From: Hyphomicrobiales bacterium
GTDB taxonomy: Bacteria > Pseudomonadota > Alphaproteobacteria > Rhizobiales > JAJFHC01
Assembly (NCBI GenBank): GCA_965227875.1
Contig: OZ245783.1
Coordinates: 4,769,929-4,833,928 of the forward strand
DNA length: 64,000 nucleotides
Direction: 5' to 3'
Shown here: in pieces, positions 6,060 to 63,136 of the stretch
How positions within the stretch are numbered: the first letter of the stretch is position 1
Layout: the number at the start of each line of letters is the position of its first letter
Translations under genes and position numbers: made by a program
Notes under the pieces: generated by a model
Database searches by the model: none
The model's input: only the letters and a program-made list of their open reading frames with translations
Told to the model about the DNA's origin: nothing

Positions 6060-6857
6060 ATGATCACGAGCAAGATACACGGCCCCGCTTCCGATGACAC
6101 AGGCGTCGCGCCCGTCCGGCGTCGCCTGCTCACCGGAATGTGCGCTGCGGTCTGCTCGTGCACGGCGGCCCGGGTGCCCGGCCTGTCCTCCGGGTTGGCT
6201 CTTGCCGCCCAGCGCCGCTACTGCCTCGACGCATCGTCCGCGCCATCGGCCAGTTCACTCAAGCCGCTGTCGGCGTTCAGCAATCCGGGGCTGGCGTTCT
6301 TCATCAACAAGGAAATCCACGACCTTCTGGGATCGTTCTTCAACCTGAAGTTCGATGTGGCGCTCGACCTCGCCGACCCGGGCGCCTACATGGCCGCGTA
6401 CGAAAAACCACGCGAAGGGCGTTACGGCGCCATCATCCTCGGTGACAGGTTCTTGCGCGAAAAGGGCAACGAGCCCTTCGGATTGCTGAAGACCGCGGGC
6501 ATCCTGTCGCATGAATGCGCCCACGTCTTCCAGGTCCGGTATGGCACGGACCGCCAGTTGCTCGGCAGCAAGGGCCAGGTGCGCATGGTCGAACTCCACG
6601 CGGACTACATGTCCGGCGGGTATATCGCCTGGCGGTCGGAGTTCCTGCGTTCCAAACCCGTGGAAGTCGCCGCGATGTTCTACAGTCTCGGCGACACGTT
6701 CGTGCACAGCAACCAGCACCACGGAACCCATTCCGAGCGTTTCAGGGCGTTCCGGGCTGGATATGAGGCATACTTCGAAATGAGAAAAACAAACCAGGGC
6801 GTAACAGTGGAGATGTTGGCAGAGAAAGGGCTGGATGATGTACTCGCTGCGTTTTAG
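6060..6857 (+). CDS. Hypothetical exported protein with HExxH metalloprotease-type motif
   Basis: Arg-rich, Tat-like N-terminus 'VRRRLLTGMCAAV'. Single 'SHECAHVFQ' (HExxH). No family recognised. Confidence 0.55.
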   Translation: MITSKIHGPASDDTGVAPVRRRLLTGMCAAVCSCTAARVPGLSSGLALAAQRRYCLDASSAPSASSLKPLSAFSNPGLAFFINKEIHDLLGSFFNLKFDVALDLADPGAYMAAYEKPREGRYGAIILGDRFLREKGNEPFGLLKTAGILSHECAHVFQVRYGTDRQLLGSKGQVRMVELHADYMSGGYIAWRSEFLRSKPVEVAAMFYSLGDTFVHSNQHHGTHSERFRAFRAGYEAYFEMRKTNQGVTVEMLAEKGLDDVLAAF

Positions 6858-7515
6858 GCAATTGCAAGGGCTGCGCAACCTGATGGCGGCGGCGGCCCTG
6901 TGCCTGGTCGGTATGGCCGTTTCCGGCGACGCCATGGCCCAGTACCGCATCAACACCGGGTGCCCGTCCATCGACCAGCTCCCCCCGAATGCCACCGCGG
7001 CCGATCTGAAGGGATGTTTTCCGACGTCCGGTCCCGCGACGCTGCATTGCGGCCAGCTCCGCGCCATCGCGCGCATATCCGTCGGCACGCCGGAAGGACA
7101 GGTGGCGCTGAACAACTACCAGCAGCAGTGTCCCAGCACGCCGCAGGGCTCCGGCTCCACGAGCACGGTCAGCACACCGACGCCACCGGTCGTGCCGCAA
7201 GGCATTTCCGTTCCCGACGGCGTCTATCAGGGATGGCGCGGCTACACCCGCCGGAACCATGGTGTGAGCCGACGGATCTGCAAGGACAACTACCAGTTCT
7301 ACGCCAACGTGATCCAGGGCTCGATCACGTTCGAGAGCGGCGGCCATACCTGGCGCGGCGTCGTGGCGGACAACGGGTGGATCCATATCGGGCGCGAGGG
7401 TGTCTGGCCGCGGCCGAAGAACCCGACCGCCATCCAGGGGCCGGCGAACCAGGCCCAGCTGTACAATGGCTACTGCGGCTGGGGTGAGTTCAGGCTTGGT
7501 CAGAAGCTACAATAG
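6835..7515 (+). CDS. Hypothetical secreted Cys-containing protein
   Basis: Signal peptide 'MMYSLRFRQLQGLRNLMAAAALCLVGMAVSGDAMAQ'. Overlaps the upstream gene by about 20 nt. Has a Ser/Thr/Pro linker. No family recognised. Confidence 0.55.
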   Translation: MMYSLRFRQLQGLRNLMAAAALCLVGMAVSGDAMAQYRINTGCPSIDQLPPNATAADLKGCFPTSGPATLHCGQLRAIARISVGTPEGQVALNNYQQQCPSTPQGSGSTSTVSTPTPPVVPQGISVPDGVYQGWRGYTRRNHGVSRRICKDNYQFYANVIQGSITFESGGHTWRGVVADNGWIHIGREGVWPRPKNPTAIQGPANQAQLYNGYCGWGEFRLGQKLQ

Positions 7516-7541
7516 GCCGACGGCGCCCGCGTTGGCCTGCC

Positions 7542-8510
7542 CTATCGCGGACAACGAGGCGCGGACGTGACCCATTTTTCTCTCGTGACCGGCCGGAAGC
7601 CCTGGGATTCGAGCAACAGATTGACCATGGTCATCTGCGTCGACGTCGCGCAGTGCTGGACCTCGATATTGTAGTAGTTGCCGGTCTGCGCGCCCCGTTC
7701 CGCAACGAGATAGTTCGAGAGCGAACAGTCGTTCCGCGCCCGTTTCACCTGTTCGTAGATCACGTTGATGCCCGCATTCGTGAAGTGGTTGACGAGCGCG
7801 GCCGCATTGCCTTCGTTCGCGGCTTCCGTTCCCGCGAGCAGGATCGCATTGTCGCCATCCGCCAGCGATCGCGTGCGAGGATTGGGCGACATGAAGCCGT
7901 GCAGCGCGCCCGCCTTCTTGCGTTCGGCGGAGATATGCCCGCGGCCGTTTCCGTGCCCGTCGTCGTTCGTGTGAAGCGACAGGAAGAGGTTGCCGGTCCC
8001 TGCGAACTCCATGACGGCCTTGGTGTAGGACGGAGACGCCACCCCGCGGCCCGTGCATTTCACTTTCGCCGACCCGAAAGCGCGGTTGGGGTCGACGCCA
8101 TTGGGCAGAATACGTTTTTCGGCATTCTCGACGGCGACAAACCCGCCGCCATAGGCGATCGCGGAATAGACGGCGGTGTCGAAGGCGGAGTCCTCGTTGT
8201 CATGGGGCACGACCCAGACCGGACCGCGCCGCCGCGCGGGGTTGGTGACGAACTGCAGCAGGACATCGGAGCCCTTGATGGTCACCGTCTCCTCGCGGTA
8301 GCACAGCCCGCCGCACCTGAACTTCTCCAGATTGACCCGTACGTCCGGATCAGACACGCGCGCGGGATTTATGCACCCGTCCGGGACGGCAAGCGGTTTG
8401 CAGGATTGTGCGGAAGCGGTGTGCGAACCGGCCAGAGCGGTCAGGACCAGTGCGGCGCACCGGAGCAGAAAACGCGATGTCACGGGCAATCTCCGTTGGG
8501 ATTCGGCCAA
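7542..8510 (-). CDS. Secreted protein, possible M14/AstE-AspA-like zinc hydrolase
   Basis: Signal 'LTALAGSHTASAQ'. Motifs 'VVPHDNEDSA', 'DPNRAFG' and 'LSLHTND' resemble the HxxE / NR / H ligand layout of zinc carboxypeptidase-like deacylases. The assignment is weak. Confidence 0.5.
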   Translation of the reverse strand: MAESQRRLPVTSRFLLRCAALVLTALAGSHTASAQSCKPLAVPDGCINPARVSDPDVRVNLEKFRCGGLCYREETVTIKGSDVLLQFVTNPARRRGPVWVVPHDNEDSAFDTAVYSAIAYGGGFVAVENAEKRILPNGVDPNRAFGSAKVKCTGRGVASPSYTKAVMEFAGTGNLFLSLHTNDDGHGNGRGHISAERKKAGALHGFMSPNPRTRSLADGDNAILLAGTEAANEGNAAALVNHFTNAGINVIYEQVKRARNDCSLSNYLVAERGAQTGNYYNIEVQHCATSTQMTMVNLLLESQGFRPVTREKWVTSAPRCPR

Positions 8511-8669: not shown

Positions 8670-8760
8670 GGAGAGGTGGCCGAGTGGTCGAAGGCGCTCC
8701 CCTGCTAAGGGAGTAGGCGTCAAAAGCGTCTCGAGGGTTCGAATCCCTTCCTCTCCGCCA
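8670..8760 (+). tRNA. tRNA-Ser (anticodon GCU), CCA encoded
   Basis: GGAGAGG acceptor stem pairs with CCTCTCC. Anticodon stem-loop is CTCCC-CTGCTAA-GGGAG. Long variable arm (TAGGCGTCAAAAGCGTCTC), T-loop TTCGAAT, terminal GCCA. Confidence 0.92.
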
Positions 8761-8763
8761 TTT
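8744..8763 (+). repeat. attL-like direct repeat TCCCTTCCTCTCCGCCATTT
   Basis: Covers the last 17 nt of the tRNA plus 3 nt. Identical to 14425-14444. Confidence 0.85.
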
Positions 8764-8911
8764 CCCCGAAGACGTATTAGTATGAGTGATTTCAGGGTGT
8801 TAAGGATTGTGCCCTGAATGTCGGTGCCCCAAGTTGGTGCCCCAAGATTGCCACTCCCGGTCTGAAAGCCCGAGCCAACGCAGATCGGAAGTTGCCTGAA
8901 AGGCAGACGCA

Positions 8912-9757
8912 ATGGCCGCTGATGATGCAGAACTGGCAAGGCGCAAGAGTTTAACCTTCAAGGAGGCCGAGGGCTTGGTGCCTCTCCCCTCGCAACTAAA
9001 CCTGCGAAAAACGAGCCCAACCCTCAGAGCGCGGCTGTACGGCGTTGTCCATGATCGCCTGTTGAAAGATCGGGACAACTACTCGGCGAACTTGCGCGAA
9101 AAAAGCCTCGCCGTTATGCGCCACTACTGCATCAACAAGCTCGGCATGATGGCGGACGAACTCCCCCGTCATCGAAGCAAATGGCTGGAGTACGCGAAAG
9201 CGAACTATCAGGCAGATGACTACGGGAAGGTGTTTGACTTCACTCAGATCTTCTTGAGGTTAATGCAGGAAGAAGACCTGTCGCGGCAGGTATCCCATAT
9301 ATTGCAGGATGAGCGAGCAGCGTACCGACTGGTCGATGGCGACACCATAATGCCGATGTCCTCGGAGGAAGAGGGAGCGGCTTTGAATTCTGCATTAGGC
9401 GCCCTTGAGGCGGGCGAATTGGTGGGGCCGCGCAAGCACCTCGTTACCGCTGGGGCAAGATTGACTGAGGGAGACTATGCGGACAGCGTTCGGGAAAGTC
9501 TCCATGCCGTCGAGTCGCTGGCACGGTCCAAGACTGGCAAGAGCAAGTTTTCGGACGCACTGCGAGAACTGCACAACCAAATCCCCATGCACGGCTCGTT
9601 CAGAGCAGCCCTAGAGAAGCTCTATGGTTATGCAAGCGATGAGCCCGGGGTAAGGCACTCGAACTCGGAACAAGGAGAAGCCAAGGTAACAGAACGTGAT
9701 GCTCTGTTCGTCCTTGGGGTCTGCGCCTCCTTCATAACGTACCTACTTTCAGCCTAA
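8912..9757 (+). CDS. AbiJ-like protein (AbiJ-NTD4-type N-terminus, HEPN-type C-terminus)
   Basis: N-terminal 'LTFKEAEGLVPLPSQLNLRKTSPTLRARLYGVV' fits the remembered AbiJ_NTD4 pattern (F-x-x-R/A-x-G...Q...LRN-x-LW). C-terminal 'GDYADSVRESLHAVESLAR...LYGYASDEPGVRHS...ERDALFVLGVCASFITYL' fits the AbiJ HEPN-like tail. Confidence 0.55.
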   Translation: MAADDAELARRKSLTFKEAEGLVPLPSQLNLRKTSPTLRARLYGVVHDRLLKDRDNYSANLREKSLAVMRHYCINKLGMMADELPRHRSKWLEYAKANYQADDYGKVFDFTQIFLRLMQEEDLSRQVSHILQDERAAYRLVDGDTIMPMSSEEEGAALNSALGALEAGELVGPRKHLVTAGARLTEGDYADSVRESLHAVESLARSKTGKSKFSDALRELHNQIPMHGSFRAALEKLYGYASDEPGVRHSNSEQGEAKVTERDALFVLGVCASFITYLLSA

Positions 9758-9793
9758 TGGCGTGCTGCCAGAATGGCAGAAAGGCAGATAGAA

Positions 9794-9880
9794 GGTCGCT
9801 GCGCTCGACTGTGTCTAGCTGGTCGGGCTGGTCACCCTCCATTGGCTCGTATGGTTCGCCGTGACTTATAGTGGGTCGCC
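9794..9880 (+). repeat. Repeat module A, copy 1
   Basis: About 80% identical, in the same orientation, to 11027-11113. Shared core is GGTCGGGCTG.TC.CCCTCCATTGGCTCG. Confidence 0.8.
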
Positions 9881-10050
9881 GAGAGGCGCTGTCCGTCGGA
9901 GCGGGCGGGTTATGCTGCCCATCATCACCCCGCCACTGTGCTGGTTTCCCTGAGGCGTCTGGAGGCCATCTGTGTGACGATACTCGGGGCCGTTTTCCGG
10001 TGGCCCGCATAGCGGGTCACAATCGGGCGGACCTGTGTGGCTGCCACCGG
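9881..10050 (+). repeat. Repeat module B, copy 1
   Basis: About 70% identical, in the same orientation, to 10846-11010. Shared blocks are GCCCATCATCACCCCGCC and ATACTCGGGGCCGT..TCCGGTGG.CCGCAT. It ends 4 nt before the PLD-like gene stop. Confidence 0.75.
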
Positions 10051-10054
10051 ACCG

Positions 10055-10774
10055 CTATTGCTTAAAGTCAACGGTGCTGGATGCCCAAAGCCCCTCATAG
10101 GTCTGCTGAACCGCTGCAAATGTATCAGTGATCTCTGTCAGCGTCGTCGGCGCTTTCTTCGCGCCATCCTTGAATGAGGCGCCGGACTGGAAGCAACGGG
10201 CTTTGTCGATGAGGACGAAGCGATCATGGAAGTTCGCGGCCGAACGCACCTCCAATGAATGGCCGTACTGCTGAGCATAGGCTGTCGCTGCCGGGACTAA
10301 TGTGGCCTTCCTTTCTCTACACAGAAGTCGGACTGGAACGCTCTTGTCGATGTGAGGAATGTAGCGCGTCACGAACTCCGCATCCAAATAGGGATCGACG
10401 AACAGGACATCGGCTCGGGCACTCTCAATGACATTCCTAACGCCATCGAAGTAGTCGAACACCATCCCCCCATCGACGGCCAAGCCAGTTGGTCCACCAA
10501 TGTTCCGTTGGAGTCTCCAACGAGCCGCTCGGAGAAGTCGGCGGATTTCTACCTCGCTCGTGTAGCTCGTCAACCGGTCATAAAGGCCCCCTATCGCGGG
10601 ACCGATTGGCTTCGACAGAGGGGTCGGCAAATCCATGAAAGTGGCTTGCACACGGCCCAGCCAATCCAAGGTTGCATCATCATCATTGTCCATCTGGCCC
10701 AAAGCCGGTGATGTACGGATGATGTCTTCAATCTCTACTAACAGCTGCCTTTCGTCCAAGAACGCCTCCTCCAT
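10055..10774 (-). CDS. PLD-like (HKD-variant 'HDR') domain protein
   Basis: C-terminal 'VLFVDPYLD...VRLLCRE...FHDRFVLIDKARCFQSGASFKDGAKK' is a single phospholipase-D/nuclease-like repeat in which HDR replaces HxK. The N-terminal ~110 aa are unknown. Confidence 0.6.
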   Translation of the reverse strand: MEEAFLDERQLLVEIEDIIRTSPALGQMDNDDDATLDWLGRVQATFMDLPTPLSKPIGPAIGGLYDRLTSYTSEVEIRRLLRAARWRLQRNIGGPTGLAVDGGMVFDYFDGVRNVIESARADVLFVDPYLDAEFVTRYIPHIDKSVPVRLLCRERKATLVPAATAYAQQYGHSLEVRSAANFHDRFVLIDKARCFQSGASFKDGAKKAPTTLTEITDTFAAVQQTYEGLWASSTVDFKQ

Positions 10775-10845
10775 CTTCCATACGCTTTGTACCGGTCCAA
10801 CAAAGCTTATAAAGCGACCGCAACGCCTTGGCCAAGTGTCCCGCT

Positions 10846-11010
10846 AAGAGGCGTCGTCCGACAGCGCGGAGTGGCTCGCCCATCATCACCCCGCCTCTGC
10901 GCGGACTTTGCAGAGTCGGCTGAACGCCATCGGTGCGGCAATACTCGGGGCCGTCGTCCGGTGGTCCGCATGGAGGGGCACATTGGGACTGGTCCGATGG
11001 TGCTGCCCGG
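10846..11010 (+). repeat. Repeat module B, copy 2
   Basis: See copy 1. It lies 71 nt upstream of the PLD-like gene start. Confidence 0.75.
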
Positions 11011-11026
11011 CTCGGGTAGCTAGGCC

Positions 11027-11113
11027 GGTCGCTCCGCTCCCGCTGCTCTGATCGGTCGGGCTGATCGCCCTCCATTGGCTCGCTTGGCTCGCCCTGAGTC
11101 ACAGTGAGTCGCT
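11027..11113 (+). repeat. Repeat module A, copy 2
   Basis: See copy 1. Here A follows B, the opposite order to copy 1. Confidence 0.8.
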
Positions 11114-11210
11114 GACGGCAATGTTACAGTTTCAGGTGGGGAGACAATGCGGGCAAGCCTAACGGGCCTGCACAGGCTTCTATGAGGCTCCTGGGGGCCT
11201 TTCCTTGGGG

Positions 11211-11259
11211 CGGGAGATTGGCCCTCGGCTCCTCTTCTCCCCATCCCCTCGGTGGTTAC
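11211..11259 (+). repeat. Direct repeat C, copy 1 (flanks serine recombinase)
   Basis: CGGGAGATTGGCCCTCGGCTCCTCTTCTCCCCATCCCCTCGGTGGTTAC. Matches 12351-12399 at 47 of 49 positions in the same orientation. Weaker similarity extends about 15 nt upstream. Confidence 0.85.
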
Positions 11260-11457
11260 CTAGGACGGCCACACTATGCCGACTTGGCGTTGCCGCCCCG
11301 TGCCCGGCCTGTGCAGATAGACCCTGTTTCCCCGACGCGATGGATCGGCCTTGCGGTCTAGGCTTGGTGGCACGGGCCTGCGGTCAGGGCTTGAAGTCCG
11401 TGCCGTACCTAACCGCCTTCGGCCACTGATTCTATCTCAAGAGCGAGGGGTGCAGCC

Positions 11458-12012
11458 CTAAGTCGCCAATGCGCGATAGACGCTGCGCTCGCTGATGCCA
11501 AGCTGAGTGGCGATGGCTGTGCGGGTCACGCCTTGGTCTGCCAGCGACTTGATGGCGTCCCGTTGGGCCATGGCCTTAGGCTTCCTCCCTGTGTACTTCC
11601 CTTGCGCCTTGGCCTTCTCAATCCCGGCCCTCTGCCTCTCCAGCATCATGGTCCGTTCAAACTCAGCGAAGGCCGCGAACATGGCAAGCTGTAGCTTCCC
11701 TGTGGCCGACTTGGTGTTGATCGTCTCGCCAGCGAAGTCGAGTATGCGTAGCCCAATCCCCCGCTTCTCTAGGTCGTCCACAAGGGCGAGGAGGCTGCGA
11801 AGGTCTCTGGCGAGCCTGTCCATCTTCGTCACCACAAGCGTATCGCCCTCGCGGAGATATCTCAGGGCTTCGTCAAGCTGGTCCCTCTGTGAGGCCCCTG
11901 AGGCGTGTTCCTCAAAGATGCGCTCGCAGCCTGCCGCCATGAGTGCTTCACGTTGGGCGTCCAGTCCCGCTACTTGGTCAACCGTCGAGGTCCGTGCGTA
12001 GCCTGTGAGCAT
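11458..12012 (-). CDS. Small serine recombinase (resolvase/invertase family)
   Basis: 'MLTGYARTSTVDQ' holds the catalytic Ser motif. Also 'LVVTKMDRLARDL' and a C-terminal HTH 'GVTRTAIATQLGISERSVYRAL'. ATG at 12012 has AAGGAAGG 8 nt upstream. The ORF is open to 12039. Confidence 0.9.
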   Translation of the reverse strand: MLTGYARTSTVDQVAGLDAQREALMAAGCERIFEEHASGASQRDQLDEALRYLREGDTLVVTKMDRLARDLRSLLALVDDLEKRGIGLRILDFAGETINTKSATGKLQLAMFAAFAEFERTMMLERQRAGIEKAKAQGKYTGRKPKAMAQRDAIKSLADQGVTRTAIATQLGISERSVYRALAT

Positions 12013-12350
12013 AAGGCAATCCTTCCTTTGGTCTGCCATTAGGTTCTAGACCTTGGTTTGATGACATGACAAAAGGTGGAAGTCAACCCTAATGGCAGAC
12101 TTAATGGCTGCGGACCCTGACAGCATCAAGACCCTGCCAGAACCTTGCCCTATTGGCAGTACGGGGCGGCTTCGAGCGATGACACTGGACGGCACCCCCC
12201 GGTGTTGGAAAACGTTGGGGCGCTGGACAGTGCGAATGGCGCTGCGAAAACGTGCTGGCGGGGCCTATGGGGAAACTCGCCCATTGCTACGTAAAAGACG
12301 ACCACTCGAATGAGCGACCCGTCAGCAGCTACTCGGGGTTTCCTTAGTGT

Positions 12351-12399
12351 CGGGAGATTGGCCCTCGGCTCCTCTTCTCCCCTTCCCCTCGGTGGCTAC
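12351..12399 (+). repeat. Direct repeat C, copy 2
   Basis: See copy 1. The spacing of 1140 bp encloses the recombinase gene. Confidence 0.85.
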
Positions 12400-12508
12400 T
12401 TCGGGCCGATCTGTACGGTGACTTCATGGTCACTTTGATCATTGCGACAAGGCGCGGCATGAAGACGACCGCAACGCTAGGAGGGAGAGGAGAGATGGGT
12501 CTTCCCCT

Positions 12509-12523
12509 CCCACACAGTGTGGG
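12509..12523. promoter_or_regulatory. 15-bp perfect palindrome CCCACACAGTGTGGG
   Basis: Read directly. The arms are too close for a hairpin loop, so it is more likely a dimeric protein-binding site. Confidence 0.35.
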
Positions 12524-12526
12524 GAC

Positions 12527-12612
12527 CTCTATGGCTACTTAGTGTCGCGACTCTATGTATGCTACCAATAGACCGCTCATAGCCCCTTGAAAACACTCAA
12601 AGTCTCAACTCA
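12527..12612 (+). repeat. Repeat D, copy 1
   Basis: About 75% identical to 12669-12752. Each copy contains the sub-motif CTC(T/C)ATG(G/TAT)GCTAC twice, and the block CCCTTGAAA.C.CTCAAAGT. Confidence 0.75.
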
Positions 12613-12668
12613 GTGTTTTCTGCGGCCCTTCCAGCGGTCTTCACCGTGTCGCAGCCTTGAGGGATGGT

Positions 12669-12752
12669 CTCCATGGCTACCTGGGGGACCCTCTATGTAT
12701 GCTACTTATTAACGCCGCGTAGGCCCTTGAAATCGCTCAAAGTGCTAACTCA
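12669..12752 (+). repeat. Repeat D, copy 2
   Basis: See copy 1. It ends on the stop codon of the small ORF at 12750. Confidence 0.75.
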
Positions 12753-12971
12753 AGCCAATCTAGCGGCGGCGTTCCGCTGGTCCTCAATGAGCGCTTCGAG
12801 CCACGGTTTTAAGTCGGCTCCGCGTCGCCAGTCCCTCAGGAAGTCCGCCGTCTCGTAGTCGGGCAGGAAGTCTGGCGCAAAGGCGACGGCTGCGGTCAGT
12901 TCCTTCAGGTCGGCGGGGCCGATCTTGCTCAGGTCAGTGGCCATAAGGTCGCGGTCCTGATCGGTCATCAT
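12750..12971 (-). CDS. Hypothetical 73-aa protein translationally coupled to the integrase
   Basis: Its ATG (12969-12971) overlaps the integrase TGA (12968-12970) as ATGA. Acidic, no family recognised. Confidence 0.45.
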   Translation of the reverse strand: MMTDQDRDLMATDLSKIGPADLKELTAAVAFAPDFLPDYETADFLRDWRRGADLKPWLEALIEDQRNAAARLA

Positions 12972-14389
12972 TGGTCGGTGTCCTTGTGTTGGGCGAGGGA
13001 TTCGGGTGGAAGCTGGACGGCTTCGACGCAAGGACGCATGGCTTCAGGTGGCGTCTTGCCGGGGTAGTGACTCATGGTGAGGTGGAGCATTTGCTTGATG
13101 CCGCCGTCACTATGGCCAACCACATCGGCAATAACCCAAGGTGTGTATCCCGCTTCGGGGTTCGCCATTTCGTCTCGGGCCTTGAGGATGAACCACCTGC
13201 GGAACGAATGGAAATCGACGTTGGACTTCGCCTTGTCGTTTGGCCTTTCATCGACTCCAATGTTGCATCGGTATCTGCTGAAGCGCTTCGAGGCAGGATC
13301 GGAACGGCTGTCCCTTGACAGCGGCACGGGAGGCAGTTCTTCAATAAGGTAGTCCGTGGGCCGCTTACCTTCGATGCGACGATCTACGATGGCCACAAGG
13401 GCGCTGTGTACGGGAATGCGCCGCTTGGCGTTCTCAGTCTTGCCAGCGGGGATGCTGAATATGCCACCCTCGCAATCGGACACCCTAAGTTGGCATATCT
13501 CCTCAATCCTCATGCCGCTCAGCGCTGCAATGCGCATCAGGTCAGCCAGAATGGGCGGTGCGGGGCCATAGATCAGGGTCGCTAGCTCAGCGTCCGTGTA
13601 AGGTCGTTTGCCACCGTCTGGCTCCCCTTCATGGGCGACACGTCGCGGCGGCGATGGGAGGGCCAATCCGCGCCACGGGCTTTCGTGTTCAATGTGCCCC
13701 TGCTCCTCCATCCACTTCCAGTACTCACGGAGGAAGCCCAGGTAGGTGCCCGCCCTGTTCCGCGATAGCTTTCCTGCAAGCTCCTCCCGAATAAACCTTT
13801 TGGCGGCACTGCGGTCCAAGGCCTCAACGGTCGTGTGTAGGCTGTTCCGCTCTAGCCATTTGGCCAGCATGTCTAGGACGCGGGAGAAGTCCTTTGCGCC
13901 CTTGATGGTGTAGCTCTTGTGCGCCTTGAAGGCGTCTGCAAGGTAGTCGATTGGTGTCGCCCGTCCGCTGATCACCTGCCAGATTTCCTTTGCCCTCTCC
14001 TCCCCGTAGTCCTCCTCCACTTCGCGGACCAGATCGGGGATGGCGGCATTGGACACTTGCATGGGCATTGAGTAGTTGAGCCGGATGCGCAGAGCCTCGG
14101 CGTTGATTGGATCGCCCGCGTCAAGGGACTTCTGTGCGGCGCTGAGGATGCCCTTCAGCGTCGCCACCACGGGCCACTTCCGCTCGTTCGCTGCCCGAAG
14201 GTCTGCCGTGCCAAGTGATTGCTTCAGGAAAGTCTTACCAATGATCGGGACAAGCCGCTTGGGCACCCTGACCCGCACTCTCCATTGCTGGCCGTGCCAC
14301 TCTAGGTATTGCCGATTGCTGGTCACGCTTGCCCCGTTTGTGCCCCACCACAGTGCCCCAGCTTGGAGCGTAAACTGCAATAAAGTCAA
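12968..14389 (-). CDS. Tyrosine recombinase / phage-type integrase (DUF6538-like N-terminus)
   Basis: N-terminal 'YLEWHGQQWRVRVRVPKRLVPIIGKTFLKQSLGTAD'. Catalytic region 'LSGMRIEEICQL', 'HSFRRWF', 'VGHSDGG...MSHY'. There is no ATG at the 5' end, so the start is TTG 14389 or GTG 14326 (uncertain). Confidence 0.88.
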   Translation of the reverse strand: MTLLQFTLQAGALWWGTNGASVTSNRQYLEWHGQQWRVRVRVPKRLVPIIGKTFLKQSLGTADLRAANERKWPVVATLKGILSAAQKSLDAGDPINAEALRIRLNYSMPMQVSNAAIPDLVREVEEDYGEERAKEIWQVISGRATPIDYLADAFKAHKSYTIKGAKDFSRVLDMLAKWLERNSLHTTVEALDRSAAKRFIREELAGKLSRNRAGTYLGFLREYWKWMEEQGHIEHESPWRGLALPSPPRRVAHEGEPDGGKRPYTDAELATLIYGPAPPILADLMRIAALSGMRIEEICQLRVSDCEGGIFSIPAGKTENAKRRIPVHSALVAIVDRRIEGKRPTDYLIEELPPVPLSRDSRSDPASKRFSRYRCNIGVDERPNDKAKSNVDFHSFRRWFILKARDEMANPEAGYTPWVIADVVGHSDGGIKQMLHLTMSHYPGKTPPEAMRPCVEAVQLPPESLAQHKDTDQ

Positions 14390-14424: not shown

Positions 14425-14444
14425 TCCCTTCCTCTCCGCCATTT
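14425..14444 (+). repeat. attR-like direct repeat TCCCTTCCTCTCCGCCATTT
   Basis: Exact copy of 8744-8763. It lies 36 nt from the integrase 5' end. Confidence 0.85.
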
Positions 14445-14640: not shown

Positions 14641-16002
14641 TCAGTAGGGCCGACGGATCGAGAGACGCTCGTAGTGCGTGGACCCCAGCATCCCGTTTTC
14701 CGGATACTCGCTGATGCGCACAGAGTCCGACTGGTTCCCGCCCAGCAACCTGATCTTTCCGTCGCTGGCGCCCGTCCAGAAACCCACATGGCCGCCGATG
14801 ACCGCGCCGCCGCTCGATCCCGAACGCCGCCGGAACACCGCGATGTCGCCTTCGCGGGGGTCCCCGGTGACATCCGTGCCCCAGCCGCTGTCGTGCCAGG
14901 ACATCGCCCACTTGTTGTCCGTCCCGTTGAGGCCGGCCTGCTCGACGCAGTAGTTGACGAATGACGAGCACCACGCGGTTTCGTCGGGATACGCGCCACC
15001 GTTCGTCGTCGCGTGGTACATGACGATTCGCGGGTTGTGCGCGCTGCCCGCGATTTCCCTGACGCCAAGCTTCATTTCCGCGTAGGCCACGTCTATGGGC
15101 CTGTCGTGGGTCGCCTCGATCGGGAAGCCGCCCGCCGACGGACGCAGGAACGCCCCATGCATGAAACCGTCGGCGACGCCGTCGCCCTCGAGGTCGACTT
15201 TCACCCAGTCCCCCGAACGCCCGATGGCCGAAACGATGGCCCCTTCCGGCAGACTCCCGCTGTCGGCATATTCGGTTCCTGGGCCCTTTCGGACCTTGAG
15301 GCCCGACCGCGCGGTGACCTCCATGAGGACGACCGTGGACGACAAGGTCTCCGGCGCCTCCCCGTCGAGGCGGAACTGCCCGAATTCGGCGAAGGCCGGG
15401 CTCACGATATTGCCGTCATAGGTGAACGCCCCGCCCGGCCAGGTCTTGTGAAGGTACTTCTGGAACACCGCCCAGCGGTCGGTCTTCAGCATGTCCCGCG
15501 TGCCCGACCATCCGGTCGCACCGGCGAGCCACGCAAGGTCGACGAGTTCCTTCTTCATCATGACTGTCGCGACCGTGCCCGAACCGTAGATCCCGACCCG
15601 GTAGTCGTTTCCAAGTGCGGCACGGACCTCCTCGAAATAAGGCACGATCCTGTCCAGCTCGCTCTGGCGGAAGTAGTCGTGGTCGACCGCGAAGTAGATG
15701 GCCGAGCCTTCCGGCTGCTCCAGTCCGCGCGCCAGTTGAAGCGCCCTCTTCGCGTCCGCCCTGCCGCTCTGCGCGTCGAGGTCGTCGATGTGTCCACCCG
15801 CCCCGCCGCGCTGCTGGAACACCACCGCGATGGCGAGGTTCGCCGCGGTGAGGGCCGCCGCCTCCTCCGGCTCGAGACGCTTGGTCGGCAAGTTGTTGCT
15901 GTTGCGGTGATTGTAGTAGCGGATGACCGTCTTGACCCCGCGTGCAGCAATGTCGTCCGCGTTGTCGGCTATGTTCATGGGAACGTCGATTGCGTCATAC
16001 AT
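14641..16002 (-). CDS. Multidomain peptidoglycan hydrolase: DUF1906 (GH25-like) + SH3 + TIGR02594/CHAP-like
   Basis: 'GVKTVIRYY...AIYFAVDHDY...YRVGIYGSG' (DUF1906/Rv2525c-like). 'GLKVRKGPGTEYADSGSLPEGAIVSAIGRSGDWVKV' (SH3b). 'DETAWCSSFVNYCV...GDIAVFRR...GHVGFW...LLGGNQSDSV' (TIGR02594 NlpC/P60-CHAP-like). No signal peptide. Confidence 0.85.
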   Translation of the reverse strand: MYDAIDVPMNIADNADDIAARGVKTVIRYYNHRNSNNLPTKRLEPEEAAALTAANLAIAVVFQQRGGAGGHIDDLDAQSGRADAKRALQLARGLEQPEGSAIYFAVDHDYFRQSELDRIVPYFEEVRAALGNDYRVGIYGSGTVATVMMKKELVDLAWLAGATGWSGTRDMLKTDRWAVFQKYLHKTWPGGAFTYDGNIVSPAFAEFGQFRLDGEAPETLSSTVVLMEVTARSGLKVRKGPGTEYADSGSLPEGAIVSAIGRSGDWVKVDLEGDGVADGFMHGAFLRPSAGGFPIEATHDRPIDVAYAEMKLGVREIAGSAHNPRIVMYHATTNGGAYPDETAWCSSFVNYCVEQAGLNGTDNKWAMSWHDSGWGTDVTGDPREGDIAVFRRRSGSSGGAVIGGHVGFWTGASDGKIRLLGGNQSDSVRISEYPENGMLGSTHYERLSIRRPY

Positions 16003-19893: not shown

Positions 19894-21003
19894 ATGTCCT
19901 ATTTTGGCGCAATGCACGGGATGCACGGCATGCATGGGATGCACGGCATGCATGGAATGCACGGCATGCACGGGATGCATGGCATGCACGGAATGCAGTC
20001 TTCAGGCGGCGGCTCCGGGTCGCTCCTCGGCCTGCAGTCGAGTGCCCAGGCCATCGTCCAGGTTGCCAAGGACGAATACCTCGCAGACAGCTTTCTCGGG
20101 ATCCACGACTCCGGCGCGGCACCGGTCAGCCGCTGGGAACCGTATGTCCGGCAGATGCTATATCAGGTCGAGTTCCTGAACCGCTACCGGTGCGAAGCCG
20201 GAACCGACGGCGAAAATGGGGTCTCCGGCGTCTCGGTTTCCTGGGCCGGCGAACAATTGCTTTCCCTCGGCAATCCGCCCGAGGCCACATTCATCGCCCA
20301 GCTCGGCAAGACGGCCGCGGAGGCCAGCCAGCGGGTTCAGCGCTACGACGAGATCATCTCGCAGGCAGGCGCGTTTCCCGATTATTTCGGCATGCTTCTT
20401 TCCCTGACCATGCCGCAGTTCACCCACACGTTCGAACTCATCCAGACTGTACACGTCCTGGCCGGCTACGCGTCCATGCCGCCCAAGCACCTGCTCGCGT
20501 GCCGGCGGCCGAGCGAGATCGACGGCCGCCTGATGACCCTGCTGCCCAATCCCGGCCACGGCAGCTTTCCGAGCGGACATGCGACGCAGGCGACGGCGGT
20601 CGCCACCGTACTCGATCACCTGCTCGACGTTGTCGCAGAGCACTACCCCGACACGGAAAACAGAAAGCGGCTGATGAGGAAGCAGGCGCGGAGGATCGCC
20701 ACCAACAGGACGGTCGCCGGAATCCATTTCCCGATCGACCACACGGCCGGCGAACTTCTCGGCAAGCGGGTCGGTATCATGCTGCTGAGGGCATGCGGGG
20801 TGGCTGCGGCGGACACGCCTGTGAAACGAGCGACCTATACCGCGTACAGTGGCGACGCCTACGCCCAGTCGGTGAATGAGCCCATCGAGAAGGCCACCGG
20901 TGTCTCCGAAGACGACGAAGAAATCGCATCCACGGACCGGATCGAGGTGTTCGAGTGGCTGTGGTCGAAGTCGGTCGATGAATTCATCCGCAGAGCGGCA
21001 TGA
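19894..21003 (+). CDS. PAP2 / vanadium-haloperoxidase-like protein with N-terminal (Met-His-Gly)x9 repeat
   Basis: GGGAGGA lies 6 nt upstream. N-terminus is 'MSYFGA(MHG)9MQSSGGGSGS'. PAP2 tripartite motif is 'CRRPSE' ... 'FPSGHAT' ... 'NRTVAGIHFPID'. No TM segments or signal peptide. Confidence 0.75.
   Translation: MSYFGAMHGMHGMHGMHGMHGMHGMHGMHGMHGMQSSGGGSGSLLGLQSSAQAIVQVAKDEYLADSFLGIHDSGAAPVSRWEPYVRQMLYQVEFLNRYRCEAGTDGENGVSGVSVSWAGEQLLSLGNPPEATFIAQLGKTAAEASQRVQRYDEIISQAGAFPDYFGMLLSLTMPQFTHTFELIQTVHVLAGYASMPPKHLLACRRPSEIDGRLMTLLPNPGHGSFPSGHATQATAVATVLDHLLDVVAEHYPDTENRKRLMRKQARRIATNRTVAGIHFPIDHTAGELLGKRVGIMLLRACGVAAADTPVKRATYTAYSGDAYAQSVNEPIEKATGVSEDDEEIASTDRIEVFEWLWSKSVDEFIRRAA
19912..19992 (+). 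repeat. 9-bp in-frame tandem repeat ATGCA(C/T)GG(N) x9
   Basis: Read directly. Units start at 19912, 19921, ... 19984. Variation is only at synonymous third positions. Confidence 0.95.
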
Positions 21004-62871: not shown

Positions 62872-63136
62872 AGAGCGTATCTCGCTTACATGGAAGCGCT
62901 TTGACCGCGTTTTTGCGTCTGCCGGCAAGGCGTGCGACCCGCCGTGGTCTGGTTGACCATAAGGGGAGCACAACGCAGTCCGGCGGGCGCAAAAACACGG
63001 CCTTCGGTGGGCCAAATCCGTCCGTCGGCCACGTTGCGGCGCTTGCGAGATATCCCGCATCGCGCTGCGCACCGCGCCTTGCCGAACGAACGGATTTGGA
63101 ACCATCAAACGATTCCATGTAAGCGAGATACGCTCT
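62872..63136. repeat. 265-bp element with 24-bp perfect terminal inverted repeats (MITE-like or long structured intergenic element)
   Basis: AGAGCGTATCTCGCTTACATGGAA (62872-62895) is the exact reverse complement of 63113-63136. There is an internal imperfect inverted pair, CCAAATCCGTCCGTCGGC / GCCGAACGAACGGATTTGG. Confidence 0.7.

What the first reader, a model, noticed from the sequence alone, without database searches (positions are those of the whole stretch)
11211..12399. Serine recombinase gene enclosed by 49-bp direct repeats, a possible self-excising mini-cassette nested in the island
CGGGAGATTGGCCCTCGGCTCCTCTTCTCCCC(A/T)TCCCCTCGGTGG(T/C)TAC occurs at 11211-11259 and 12351-12399, matching at 47 of 49 positions in the same orientation. 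The two copies flank only the 184-aa resolvase/invertase-type gene. Invertases of this size normally act on inverted sites. Direct sites would instead give deletion or circularisation of a 1.14-kb unit carrying the recombinase itself. Alternatively, the repeats mark a target duplication or junctions between island modules.
Basis: partly seen in the sequence, partly recalled or inferred. Interest (0 to 1): 0.6.

Follow-up and report, generated by a model that had tools for sequence, protein, structure and literature searches.

The report
Junction repeats bracketing an island's resolvase gene
The two 49-base repeats are real, but they look like copies of a short sequence that marks boundaries between gene modules in a small mobile defence island, not the sites the enclosed recombinase cuts, so a self-excising mini-cassette is unlikely.

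Summary
Observation confirmed. The 49-mers at 11211-11259 and 12351-12399 match 47/49 (about 66 nt at 89% with flanks). There are only two copies in the 64 kb. A 23-25-nt core has no exact match in the genome, metagenome or viral collections.

They lie in a 5.7-kb island in tRNA-Ser(GCT), bounded by a 20-bp att repeat (8744-8763 = 14425-14444). The island carries a tyrosine integrase, a 184-aa serine recombinase and two candidate defence genes.

Evidence against a self-excising cassette:
- The recombinase has its own res-like array of CTGCCA(A/T)TAGGG/TGGCAG motifs at about 12030-12165. It lies inside the unit as one full copy. It accompanies the gene in all nine related lineages compared; the 49-mer does not.
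- The 49-mers are divergent members of a small island-specific repeat family ("E elements"). The island holds four copies, all on one strand, and the family is absent from the control DNA searched.
- E-containing repeats also bracket non-recombinase genes: orf239 here, and an ORF in metagenome island L094.
- Only the Mesorhizobium kowhaii relative, of 11 checked, shows the same E-recombinase-E layout.

Best reading: these are module-junction repeats, and the recombinase is a resolvase-type accessory of the element. What E elements do is unresolved. Interest is low to moderate.

The parts
11200..11264 (-). RB_down: downstream copy of the direct repeat (49-nt core 11211-11259). It contains a 30-bp dyad, GGGAGA-N18-TCTCCC, at 11241-11212, about 208 nt after the recombinase stop.
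12339..12404 (-). RB_up: upstream copy of the direct repeat (49-nt core 12351-12399), with the dyad at 12381-12352, about 340 nt before the recombinase start.
11458..12012 (-). Small serine recombinase, 184 aa (an ORF from an upstream ATG at 12039 would give 193 aa). It has a Resolvase N-terminal domain plus HTH_7.
   Evidence: PF00239 E 3.4e-40; Gin invertase 1e-32; gamma-delta resolvase 8e-26
12030..12165 (-). Res-like or operator array: CTGCCA(A/T)TAGGG / TGGCAG motifs in both orientations. One apparent pair spans 26 bp and another 32-34 bp. A TTGACT -35-like hexamer lies within it. Conserved with the gene in all relatives compared.
   Evidence: blastn alignments all end at 12159-12166
12300..12319 (-). 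Terminator-like hairpin plus T-run about 30 nt after RB_up in recombinase sense. A possible end of the int-orf93 transcript.
10868..10892 (-). E element inside repeat RA2 (GGGGTGATGATGGGCGAGCCACTCC), same family and strand as RB.
9898..9931 (-). E element inside repeat RA1, same family and strand.
9794..10045 (-). RA1: direct-repeat block (sub-blocks b 9794-9882 and a 9870-10045) on the tRNA-proximal side of orf239.
10835..11115 (-). RA2: direct-repeat block (a 10835-11007, b 11027-11115) on the other side of orf239. Relatives have the b-a block in the interval between the recombinase and the tRNA (complete in L001, only a in L003, only b in L088).
10055..10774 (-). orf239, a PLD-like candidate defence gene (PADLOC PDC-S05). 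It is not a recombinase, yet it is bracketed by E-containing direct repeats.
8912..9757 (+). AbiJ_NTD4-like candidate defence gene (PADLOC PDC-S32, E 1.6e-52).
12483..12511 (-). hp1: G-rich/C-rich hairpin-like element about 120 nt upstream of RB_up. The spacing is similar in M. kowhaii and L094.
12527..12752 (-). RC: two near-tandem ~85-nt repeats (12527-12612, 12669-12752) carrying GTAGC(C/A)...GAG motifs that also begin RB.
12968..14389 (-). Tyrosine integrase (DUF6538 + Phage_integrase). The true start is probably downstream of the TTG at 14389. The overlapping small orf93 (12750-13031) is conserved with int in some relatives.
8670..8763 (+). tRNA-Ser(GCT) and attL. The 20-bp identity block TCCCTTCCTCTCCGCCATTT lies at 8744-8763.
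14425..14444 (+). attR: second copy of the 20-bp tRNA 3'-end block. It marks the other end of the 5.7-kb island.
8823..8844 (-). Two TGGGGCACC arm-type-like repeats next to attL. The partner pair is at 14339-14360 next to attR. None occurs near RB.
   Evidence: equivalent repeats in relatives

Best explanation
The 49-bp repeats are two copies of a lineage-specific intergenic repeat, here called an E element. Its shape is a G-rich arm, a GATGATGG-like box and a C-rich arm; in this island it reads GGGAGA-N18-TCTCCC with conserved flanks. E elements punctuate the boundaries between gene modules of a small island integrated into tRNA-Ser by a tyrosine integrase. The two copies bracket the resolvase module, just as other E-containing repeats bracket cargo genes.

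Shown: the repeat itself; the island and its att sites; the E family, its restriction to these islands and its single orientation; the syntenic E-recombinase-E layout in M. kowhaii; brackets around non-recombinase genes; and a different, conserved site array that accompanies the recombinase gene.

Inferred:
(a) The serine recombinase binds and acts at its own res-like array. The island has only one full copy, so the enzyme would work on two copies of the element, resolving dimers or tandem copies of the excised or replicating circle, and would probably repress its own promoter.
(b) The 49-mers are not its crossover sites.
(c) Their near-identity (47/49, against about 75% for the M. kowhaii pair) reflects a recent copying or gene-conversion event between the two junctions.
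(d) Their main consequence is passive. They give 47/49-bp homology for host homologous recombination to delete or exchange the 1.14-kb module. This would fit the patchy presence of this module among related islands.

What E elements do biochemically is not resolved.
For: - Repeat verified, with only two copies in the window.
- Island defined by tRNA-Ser, a 20-bp att duplication, the integrase and arm-type repeats at both ends only.
- The conserved recombinase module in the eight islands compared by blastn spans only window 11458-12166, that is the gene plus about 150 bp upstream. RB lies outside it and gives no blastn match in any relative.
- The upstream array of CTGCCAATAGGG/TGGCAG motifs is conserved across six lineages and can be seen in three more. 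GCCAWTAGG occurs four times in 64 kb, three of them in this array, and RB has none.
- An E-family pattern hits four times in 64 kb, all in the island and all on the minus strand. It gave 0 hits in 1.02 Mb of control loci. All 11 island hits are in recombinase sense.
- A sequence-only model found no copy beyond the 15 known in 635 kb.
- M. kowhaii has E copies at syntenic positions on both sides of the recombinase (score 23.5 against a null maximum of 12.5). Ten other relatives have none.
- Non-recombinase genes are bracketed by E-containing repeats: orf239 here, and an ORF in L094 inside an interrupted duplication of several 43-81-nt blocks spanning about 240-330 bp.
- In M. kowhaii a 23-bp repeat read by eye flanks a sieB-like gene.
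- This recombinase clade sits in integrative elements with three different integrase types, two of which also carry primase- or helicase-like genes.
- A published precedent describes small resolvase-like serine recombinases alongside an integrase, proposed to handle circular replication intermediates (PMC11551731).
Against: - The two copies are far more alike (96%) than either is to the M. kowhaii counterparts (roughly 65-80% by eye on alignment A1). Co-evolving ends of a mobile unit would also give this.
- The 30-bp dyad with 6-bp outer arms has about the size of a small-serine-recombinase dimer site.
- The window RB copies are the weaker members of the E model (15-16 bits). Their membership therefore rests partly on synteny with M. 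kowhaii.
- No function for E elements was demonstrated.
- No closely related island lacking the recombinase (an empty site) was found.
- The resolvase role is inferred from site architecture and context, not tested.
- The closest solved homologue is an invertase (Gin), not a resolvase.
Confidence: 0.55

Rival explanations
1. The 49-mers are the crossover sites of the enclosed serine recombinase, which deletes or circularises the 1.14-kb unit carrying its own gene, making it a nested self-mobile cassette.
For: - Direct repeats at 96% identity flank only the recombinase.
- The core is a 30-bp dyad of plausible dimer-site size.
- M. kowhaii has the same layout.
- The within-island pair is more alike than the cross-island counterparts, as expected for sites that recombine.
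Against: - A different, conserved res-like motif array accompanies the gene in all relatives compared and lies inside the unit. The 49-mer shares none of its motifs.
- Ten of 11 relatives lack flanking repeats.
- The same repeat family brackets non-recombinase genes.
- The enzyme is a 184-aa resolvase/invertase type. Known self-excising serine-recombinase elements use large serine recombinases (established knowledge).
- The recombinase-only contig L131 is linear and lacks E elements.
- The 49-mer occurs nowhere else in three collections, so there is no sign of spread.
Confidence: 0.08
2. E elements, including the 49-mers, are att-like secondary sites of the island's tyrosine integrase, or scars of such sites. 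Modules were captured or accreted one at a time at these sites, as in tandem island accretion or an integron-like platform. Int could still excise the unit between two of them.
For: - E elements sit at module boundaries in one orientation.
- The best local alignment of each window E element to attR falls on the core/island junction, GGCGGAGAGGAAGGGAGGCACTCTCCC.
- In L094 the repeat finder grouped an E element with attR and attL at 65%, and the L094 E elements score p = 0.003 and 0.03 against their own attR.
- The attP junction is itself a GGAGAG...CTCTCC dyad.
Against: - The similarity is weak and inconsistent under dinucleotide shuffles (window p 0.06-0.14; M. kowhaii 0.05-0.58).
- The E dyad does not co-vary with the att dyad in L094 (GGGGAT/ATCCCC against GGTGAG/CTCACC).
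- No arm-type TGGGGCACC repeats occur near any internal E element.
- Duplications around cargo extend well beyond the E element (about 170-250 nt in RA here, and a larger interrupted block in L094), which is unlike a precise site-specific junction.
- Integrase relatives at 50-59% identity have no E elements.
Confidence: 0.15
3. E elements are cis-acting expression or structure signals that end or insulate each co-directional transcription unit: an RNA 3'-end hairpin, or an operator for an island or host protein. On this view the recombinase is flanked by direct repeats simply because each unit carries one.
For: - All copies are in the sense of the int, recombinase and orf239 genes and lie between units.
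- Dyad arms are present in all copies and differ between copies in a roughly complementary way.
- A terminator-like hairpin follows RB_up by about 30 nt.
Against: - Fold energies are no better than shuffles (z from -1.3 to +1.3).
- RNAalifold finds no consensus structure in 15 copies.
- There is no U-tract after the dyad, and the loops are 17-18 nt.
- There is no Rfam match.
- No cognate protein was identified.
Confidence: 0.2

Closest known systems
tRNA-gene-integrated genomic islands with a tyrosine integrase (Islander/TIGER-type islands; small defence islands)
   Same: - Integration at the 3' end of a tRNA gene with a 20-bp duplicated att block.
- The integrase sits at one end, with arm-type repeats beside both att sites.
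- The cargo is single-gene candidate defence systems (PDC-S32, PDC-S05).
   Different: - Very small (5.7 kb).
- Also carries a small serine recombinase with its own site array.
- Its intergenic DNA is built from a family-specific repeat (E elements) that brackets modules.
res/resolvase modules of Tn3-family transposons and plasmid multimer-resolution systems (gamma-delta/Tn3 resolvase, Sin, ParA of RK2)
   Same: - A 184-aa PF00239 + HTH_7 enzyme, about as similar to gamma-delta and Tn3 resolvases as to Gin.
- A cluster of inverted motif pairs with different spacings lies immediately upstream of the gene and overlaps a promoter-like hexamer, as res does.
   Different: - No transposase or plasmid backbone.
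- Only one full array in the island.
- The motif (CTGCCA) is not the TGTCYR of Tn3-type res.
- Resolution activity is untested.
Small resolvase-like serine recombinases that accompany an integrase in pipolins and other integrative elements (PMC11551731)
   Same: An integrative element encodes both an integrase for integration and excision and a short serine recombinase. The recombinase is proposed to maintain or resolve the circular form. The cargo is defence genes.
   Different: - No piPolB.
- A different integrase family (DUF6538).
- That paper, in the passages I read, does not describe repeats bracketing the recombinase.
DNA invertases (Gin, Hin, Pin, Cin)
   Same: Best solved-structure match (Gin, E 1e-32), and similar size and domain order.
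   Different: - Invertases act on inverted sites around an invertible segment.
- Here the repeats are direct, and no inverted second copy of the upstream site was found in 64 kb.
Integron cassette arrays (attC-bounded cassettes)
   Same: Single genes are separated by short repeats of variable sequence, partly dyad-symmetric and all in one orientation, within an integrase-bearing platform.
   Different: - No IntI-type integrase.
- No R'/R'' GTTRRRY motifs.
- No supported hairpin structure.
- The duplications extend beyond the element.
- Cassette mobility is not shown.

Membership tests
Small serine recombinase (resolvase/invertase family) | N-terminal catalytic domain PF00239 with the conserved serine nucleophile motif near the N terminus | tested here: met
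   PF00239 E 3.4e-40, residues 13-149 of the 193-aa form. The alignment to Gin conserves the GY.R.ST.DQ motif.
Small serine recombinase (resolvase/invertase family) | C-terminal helix-turn-helix DNA-binding domain, total length about 180-200 aa | tested here: met
   HTH_7 E 2.4e-6 at residues 151-192. Length is 184 aa, as in database protein P0001.
res/resolvase resolution system | Multi-subsite res (inverted motif pairs at different spacings) adjacent to the resolvase gene | tested here: inconclusive
   A conserved array of CTGCCA/TGGCAG motifs, with pairs spanning about 26 and 32-34 bp, lies upstream of the gene in all relatives. Subsite assignment and binding were not tested.
res/resolvase resolution system | Two res copies in direct repeat on one molecule as the substrate | tested here: not met
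   The 64 kb has only one full array. There is only a partial motif cluster at 9753-9782. Two copies would exist only in dimers or tandem copies of the element.
DNA invertase switch (Hin/Gin type) | Two crossover sites in inverted orientation flanking an invertible segment | tested here: not met
   The 49-mers are direct. No inverted second copy of the upstream site was found.
Self-excising serine-recombinase elements (Tn4451 TnpX, SCCmec CcrAB, XisF-type) | Large serine recombinase (over 400 aa) with a C-terminal recombinase and zinc-ribbon region | tested here: not met
   The protein is 184 aa. NCBIfam XisF and Ccr models match only the catalytic domain, far below their cut-offs (88 against 375 bits; 49 against 900 bits).
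Self-excising serine-recombinase elements | Circular intermediate and empty-site junction | not testable with these tools
   No reads are available. The source genome could not be fetched. The 23-25-mer core is absent from the three collections. The related short contig L131 is linear.
tRNA-integrated genomic island (tyrosine integrase) | Duplicated tRNA 3'-end block bounding the element | tested here: met
   8744-8763 = 14425-14444, 20 of 20, at tRNA-Ser(GCT) 8670-8760.
tRNA-integrated genomic island (tyrosine integrase) | Integrase gene at one end and arm-type repeats flanking the core | tested here: met
   DUF6538 + Phage_integrase ORF 12968-14389. TGGGGCACC-type repeats occur twice next to each att site. 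Analogous repeats are present in relatives.
Integron / attC cassette array | IntI-type integrase and attC sites with conserved R'/R'' motifs and a folded bottom strand | tested here: not met
   The integrase matches Xer and integron-integrase models only far below their cut-offs. E elements lack the attC motifs. No consensus structure was found.
Intrinsic terminator | GC-rich hairpin with a 3-8-nt loop followed by a T-run | tested here: not met
   The scan lists only 12319-12300 near RB_up, not the 49-mer itself. The RB dyad has an 18-nt loop and no T-run.
tRNA-derived repeat / displaced tRNA fragment | Sequence similarity to the target tRNA above chance | tested here: not met
   Local alignment of RB to tRNA-Ser, either strand: p = 0.23-0.58. 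No tRNA model hit at E <= 10.

The most novel reading that the evidence does not exclude
E elements are functional recombination sites of a cassette platform. On this reading, a family of tRNA-Ser islands in Mesorhizobium-like bacteria captures, shuffles and sheds single-gene modules at these about 30-50-bp dyad sites, using the DUF6538 tyrosine integrase or the serine recombinase. The modules are defence genes and the resolvase module itself. This would be an integron-like system with unrelated enzymes and sites, and the 1.14-kb RB-recombinase-RB unit would be one such cassette.
Probability: 0.08. Interest if true: 0.75.

Novelty: new member of a known kind. Interest (0 to 1): 0.3.

Why it matters
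If the best reading holds, this is an ordinary small tRNA-borne defence island with an accessory resolvase. The finding mainly warns against inferring a recombinase's substrate from the nearest repeats. The E-repeat family is a modest but real observation. These short, strand-specific repeats lie at module boundaries in five related islands, each with different cargo. They could help explain how tiny defence islands swap single-gene modules. If E elements proved to be recombination sites, that would define a new cassette-exchange system, but present evidence does not favour this.

Tried and rejected
- **Dispersed genome-wide repeat:** rejected. There are two copies in 64 kb. A 25-mer core has 0 exact hits in genome contigs, and a 23-mer has 0 in metagenome and viral contigs.
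- **tRNA-derived fragment or displaced att:** similarity to tRNA-Ser is at chance level. There is no tRNA or other Rfam hit.
- **Structured RNA or ssDNA hairpin:** fold z-scores run from -1.3 to +1.3. RNAalifold predicts no pairs for 15 E copies.
- **Vestigial full attP from tandem accretion at RB:** there are no arm-type repeats near RB. Similarity of E elements to the attR junction is weak and inconsistent.
- **Plasmid or transposon origin of the unit:** the plasmid search gave only short matches within recombinase coding sequence.
- **Tracing the orf239 cassette to other islands, to test E-bounded mobility:** the closest full-length homologue is 59% identical. The one partial, closer hit could not be fetched. 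None of the window's cargo genes occurs in any fetched locus.
- **Looking for a circular 1.1-1.3-kb contig:** L131 (1286 bp) is a linear fragment beside an unrelated upstream ORF.
- **Fetching the source genome for strain comparison:** the look-up failed.
- **More distant integrase relatives from metagenomes:** at 50-59% identity they carry neither the recombinase nor E elements, so they are uninformative about empty sites.
- **A conserved small protein encoded by the RA b-a block:** reading frames are not conserved between islands.
Full report
**1. Observation**

The sequence CGGGAGATTGGCCCTCGGCTCCTCTTCTCCCC(A/T)TCCCCTCGGTGG(T/C)TAC occurs at 11211-11259 and 12351-12399 in the same orientation, with 2 differences in 49. 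With up to 3 mismatches allowed there are only these two matches in 64 kb, and none in 100 shuffles. Gapped comparison extends the similarity to about 66 nt at 89% (11200-11264 vs 12339-12404).

The interval holds one credible gene, a serine recombinase on the minus strand (11458-12012). It is 184 aa from the second ATG, the length of the identical database protein P0001. It has a Resolvase domain (E 3.4e-40) and HTH_7.

**2. Context**

The repeats lie in a 5.7-kb island inserted at the 3' end of tRNA-Ser(GCT), which sits at 8670-8760.

- A 20-bp block, TCCCTTCCTCTCCGCCATTT, is present at 8744-8763 and again at 14425-14444.
- A tyrosine integrase (DUF6538 + Phage_integrase, 12968-14389, minus strand) sits at the attR end.
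- Pairs of TGGGGCACC-type repeats lie next to each att site and nowhere else in the island. Related islands have equivalent repeats next to their att sites.
- The cargo is an AbiJ_NTD4-like gene (8912-9757; PADLOC PDC-S32, E 1.6e-52) and a PLD-like orf239 (10055-10774; PDC-S05, E 4.8e-17).

So this is a miniature defence island.

The 49-mer pair is not the only internal repeat. RA (9794-10045 vs 10835-11115, 72-74%) brackets orf239. RC (12527-12612 vs 12669-12752, 73%) is a near-tandem pair downstream of the int-orf93 unit.

**3. The recombinase has a different, conserved site array**

Relatives at 76-86% protein identity occur in Mesorhizobium genomes and soil metagenomes.

- In all eight islands compared by blastn, DNA similarity to the window covers only 11458-12166. 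That is the gene plus about 150 bp upstream.
- That upstream stretch aligns across six lineages. It carries invariant CTGCCA(A/T)TAGGG and TGGCAG motifs in both orientations. One pair spans 26 bp and another 32-34 bp, and the array overlaps a TTGACT -35-like hexamer. The same motifs can be read upstream of the gene in L088, L083 and L131.
- This is the layout expected of a res-like binding array or operator of a small serine recombinase (established knowledge of Tn3/gamma-delta res). Binding was not tested.
- The 9-mer GCCAWTAGG occurs four times in 64 kb. Three are in this array, and the 49-mer has none.
- The 49-mer lies outside the conserved module and gives no blastn match in any relative.
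- The enzyme is about equally close to Gin invertase (1e-32) and gamma-delta resolvase (8e-26), so sequence alone does not say resolvase or invertase.
- There is no inverted second site that would suit an invertase.
- The clade occurs in integrative elements with three different integrase types. Two of these elements also carry primase- or helicase-like genes.
- A published survey of pipolins describes the same pairing of an integrase with a short resolvase-like serine recombinase. It proposes that the latter resolves circular replication intermediates (PMC11551731).

I therefore infer a resolution and autoregulation role at the 12030-12165 array.

**4. What the 49-mers are**

Read in recombinase sense, each copy is GTA(G/A)CCACCGAGGGGA(A/T)-GGGAGA-N18-TCTCCC-G....

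- The M. kowhaii island (L002/L003; recombinase DNA 75% identical) has a related element, (GGTAGC)AAGGGGAGATGAGGGAGCAAGGCCACTCCCC. It lies at syntenic positions on both sides of its recombinase, about 420 nt upstream and 257 nt downstream. The window distances are about 340 and 208 nt.
- A test for flanking direct repeats was significant only for the window (score 48) and M. kowhaii (23.5, against a null maximum of 12.5). It was not significant for ten other relatives.
- A pattern written from these elements matches four times in the 64-kb window, all in the island and all on the minus strand. The four are the two 49-mers plus one copy inside each RA block (10892-10868 and 9931-9898).
- It matches two copies each in L001, L003 and L094 and one in L088, always in recombinase sense. 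It matches 0 times in 1.02 Mb of control loci and once in 0.22 Mb of distant-integrase loci.
- A sequence-only covariance model built from 15 copies found no further copy in 635 kb. In that model the window 49-mers are among the weakest members (15-16 bits). Their family membership therefore rests partly on synteny.

These "E elements" lie at module boundaries.

- In the window the order, in recombinase sense, is int-orf93 | E | recombinase | E | (b-a with E) | orf239 | (a-b with E) | abiJ-like | attL.
- In L094 an interrupted duplication that includes an E element brackets an ORF that is not a recombinase. It consists of several 43-81-nt blocks at 74-82%, within 6361-6693 and 7406-7646.
- In M. 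kowhaii a 23-bp repeat read by eye (GACTCAGGGAAGCCCGTACAGCG), adjacent to E elements, flanks a sieB-like gene.
- Cargo differs in every island.

So the observation that repeats flank only the recombinase is one instance of a general pattern, and the repeats are not tied to recombinase function.

**5. What could not be settled**

I could not assign a biochemical role to E elements.

- They are not tRNA-derived (p = 0.23-0.58).
- They match no Rfam family.
- They are not thermodynamically unusual and have no RNAalifold consensus structure.
- They do not look like intrinsic terminators, although a terminator-like hairpin follows RB_up at 12319-12300.
- They resemble the attP/attR junction dyad (GGAGAG...CTCTCC) only weakly and inconsistently: window p = 0.06-0.14, L094 p = 0.003 and 0.03, M. 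kowhaii p = 0.05-0.58.

One point favours a recombination-site reading. The window pair is 96% identical, whereas the M. kowhaii pair is about 75% and the cross-island counterparts roughly 65-80% (by eye). This implies recent copying or conversion in this lineage. The other repeat pairs differ in length and position (about 170-250 nt for RA, several blocks in L094). That fits duplication or homologous exchange of backbone segments better than a precise site-specific junction.

**6. Verdict**

The repeat is real. The self-excising-cassette reading is not supported, and the module-junction alternative is. Excision was not directly testable. The source genome could not be fetched and no reads are available. 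The core of the 49-mer is absent from three collections, so there are no empty sites, circles or second locations to compare.

I rate the finding as a new member of a known kind: a tRNA-borne defence island with an accessory resolvase module and internal junction repeats. Interest is low to moderate. The residual novel possibility is that E elements are sites of a cassette-exchange system, at about 8%.

Noticed in passing
window 9794-10045 and 10835-11115: A second pair of direct repeats (RA) brackets the PLD-like orf239. Its two sub-blocks are in permuted order: b-a on one side and a-b on the other, all direct. Relatives have the b-a block in the interval between the recombinase and the tRNA. 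The permutation is unexplained.
   Followed up: partly
window 9753-9782 (minus strand): A second small cluster of the recombinase-associated motifs lies 2.3 kb from the main array, in the same orientation. It consists of the palindrome CTGCCATTCTGGCAG followed by GCCATTAGG. It could be a partner site for the recombinase, or it could be chance.
   Followed up: partly
window 9821-9880 vs L088 1577-1636: Sub-block b of RA is 88% identical to a metagenome island whose recombinase DNA is only 71% identical. This non-coding-looking 60 nt is therefore better conserved than the neighbouring gene. One frame reads (M/V)EGDQPD in all copies, but no consistent ORF exists.
   Followed up: partly
window 12527-12752 (minus strand): The near-tandem RC repeats carry reiterated GTAGC(C/A)...GAG motifs, which also begin each 49-mer. 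Related islands have analogous reiterated (A/G)GTAG motifs downstream of int. They look like iterons or protein-binding repeats.
   Followed up: no
window 19894-20010: About 10-13 tandem 9-bp units (ATGCAYGGN) lie at the start of a 369-aa ORF (19894-21003, plus strand) and encode (MHG)9. The rest of the protein contains a PSGH motif.
   Followed up: partly
window 14641-16002 (minus strand): The gene immediately outside attR encodes a putative cell-wall hydrolase with Rv2525c-like glycoside-hydrolase, SH3_3 and CHAP domains.
   Followed up: no
window 62872-62901 and 63107-63136: A 30-nt inverted repeat, 93% complementary, with 205 nt between the arms. It could be a small mobile-element remnant or a regulatory structure.
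   Followed up: no
window 38749-39521: Three 71-nt segments 69-72% alike, spaced exactly 351 nt apart. This suggests a gene with three tandem 117-aa repeats.
   Followed up: no
L088 1-140 and 2067-3371: In this metagenome relative the recombinase module has a transposase-like ORF fragment upstream (judged from the sequence read by eye). Downstream is a second island with a different integrase (Arm-DNA-bind_3 type), AlpA and a primase-like gene. The two elements appear to abut.
   Followed up: no
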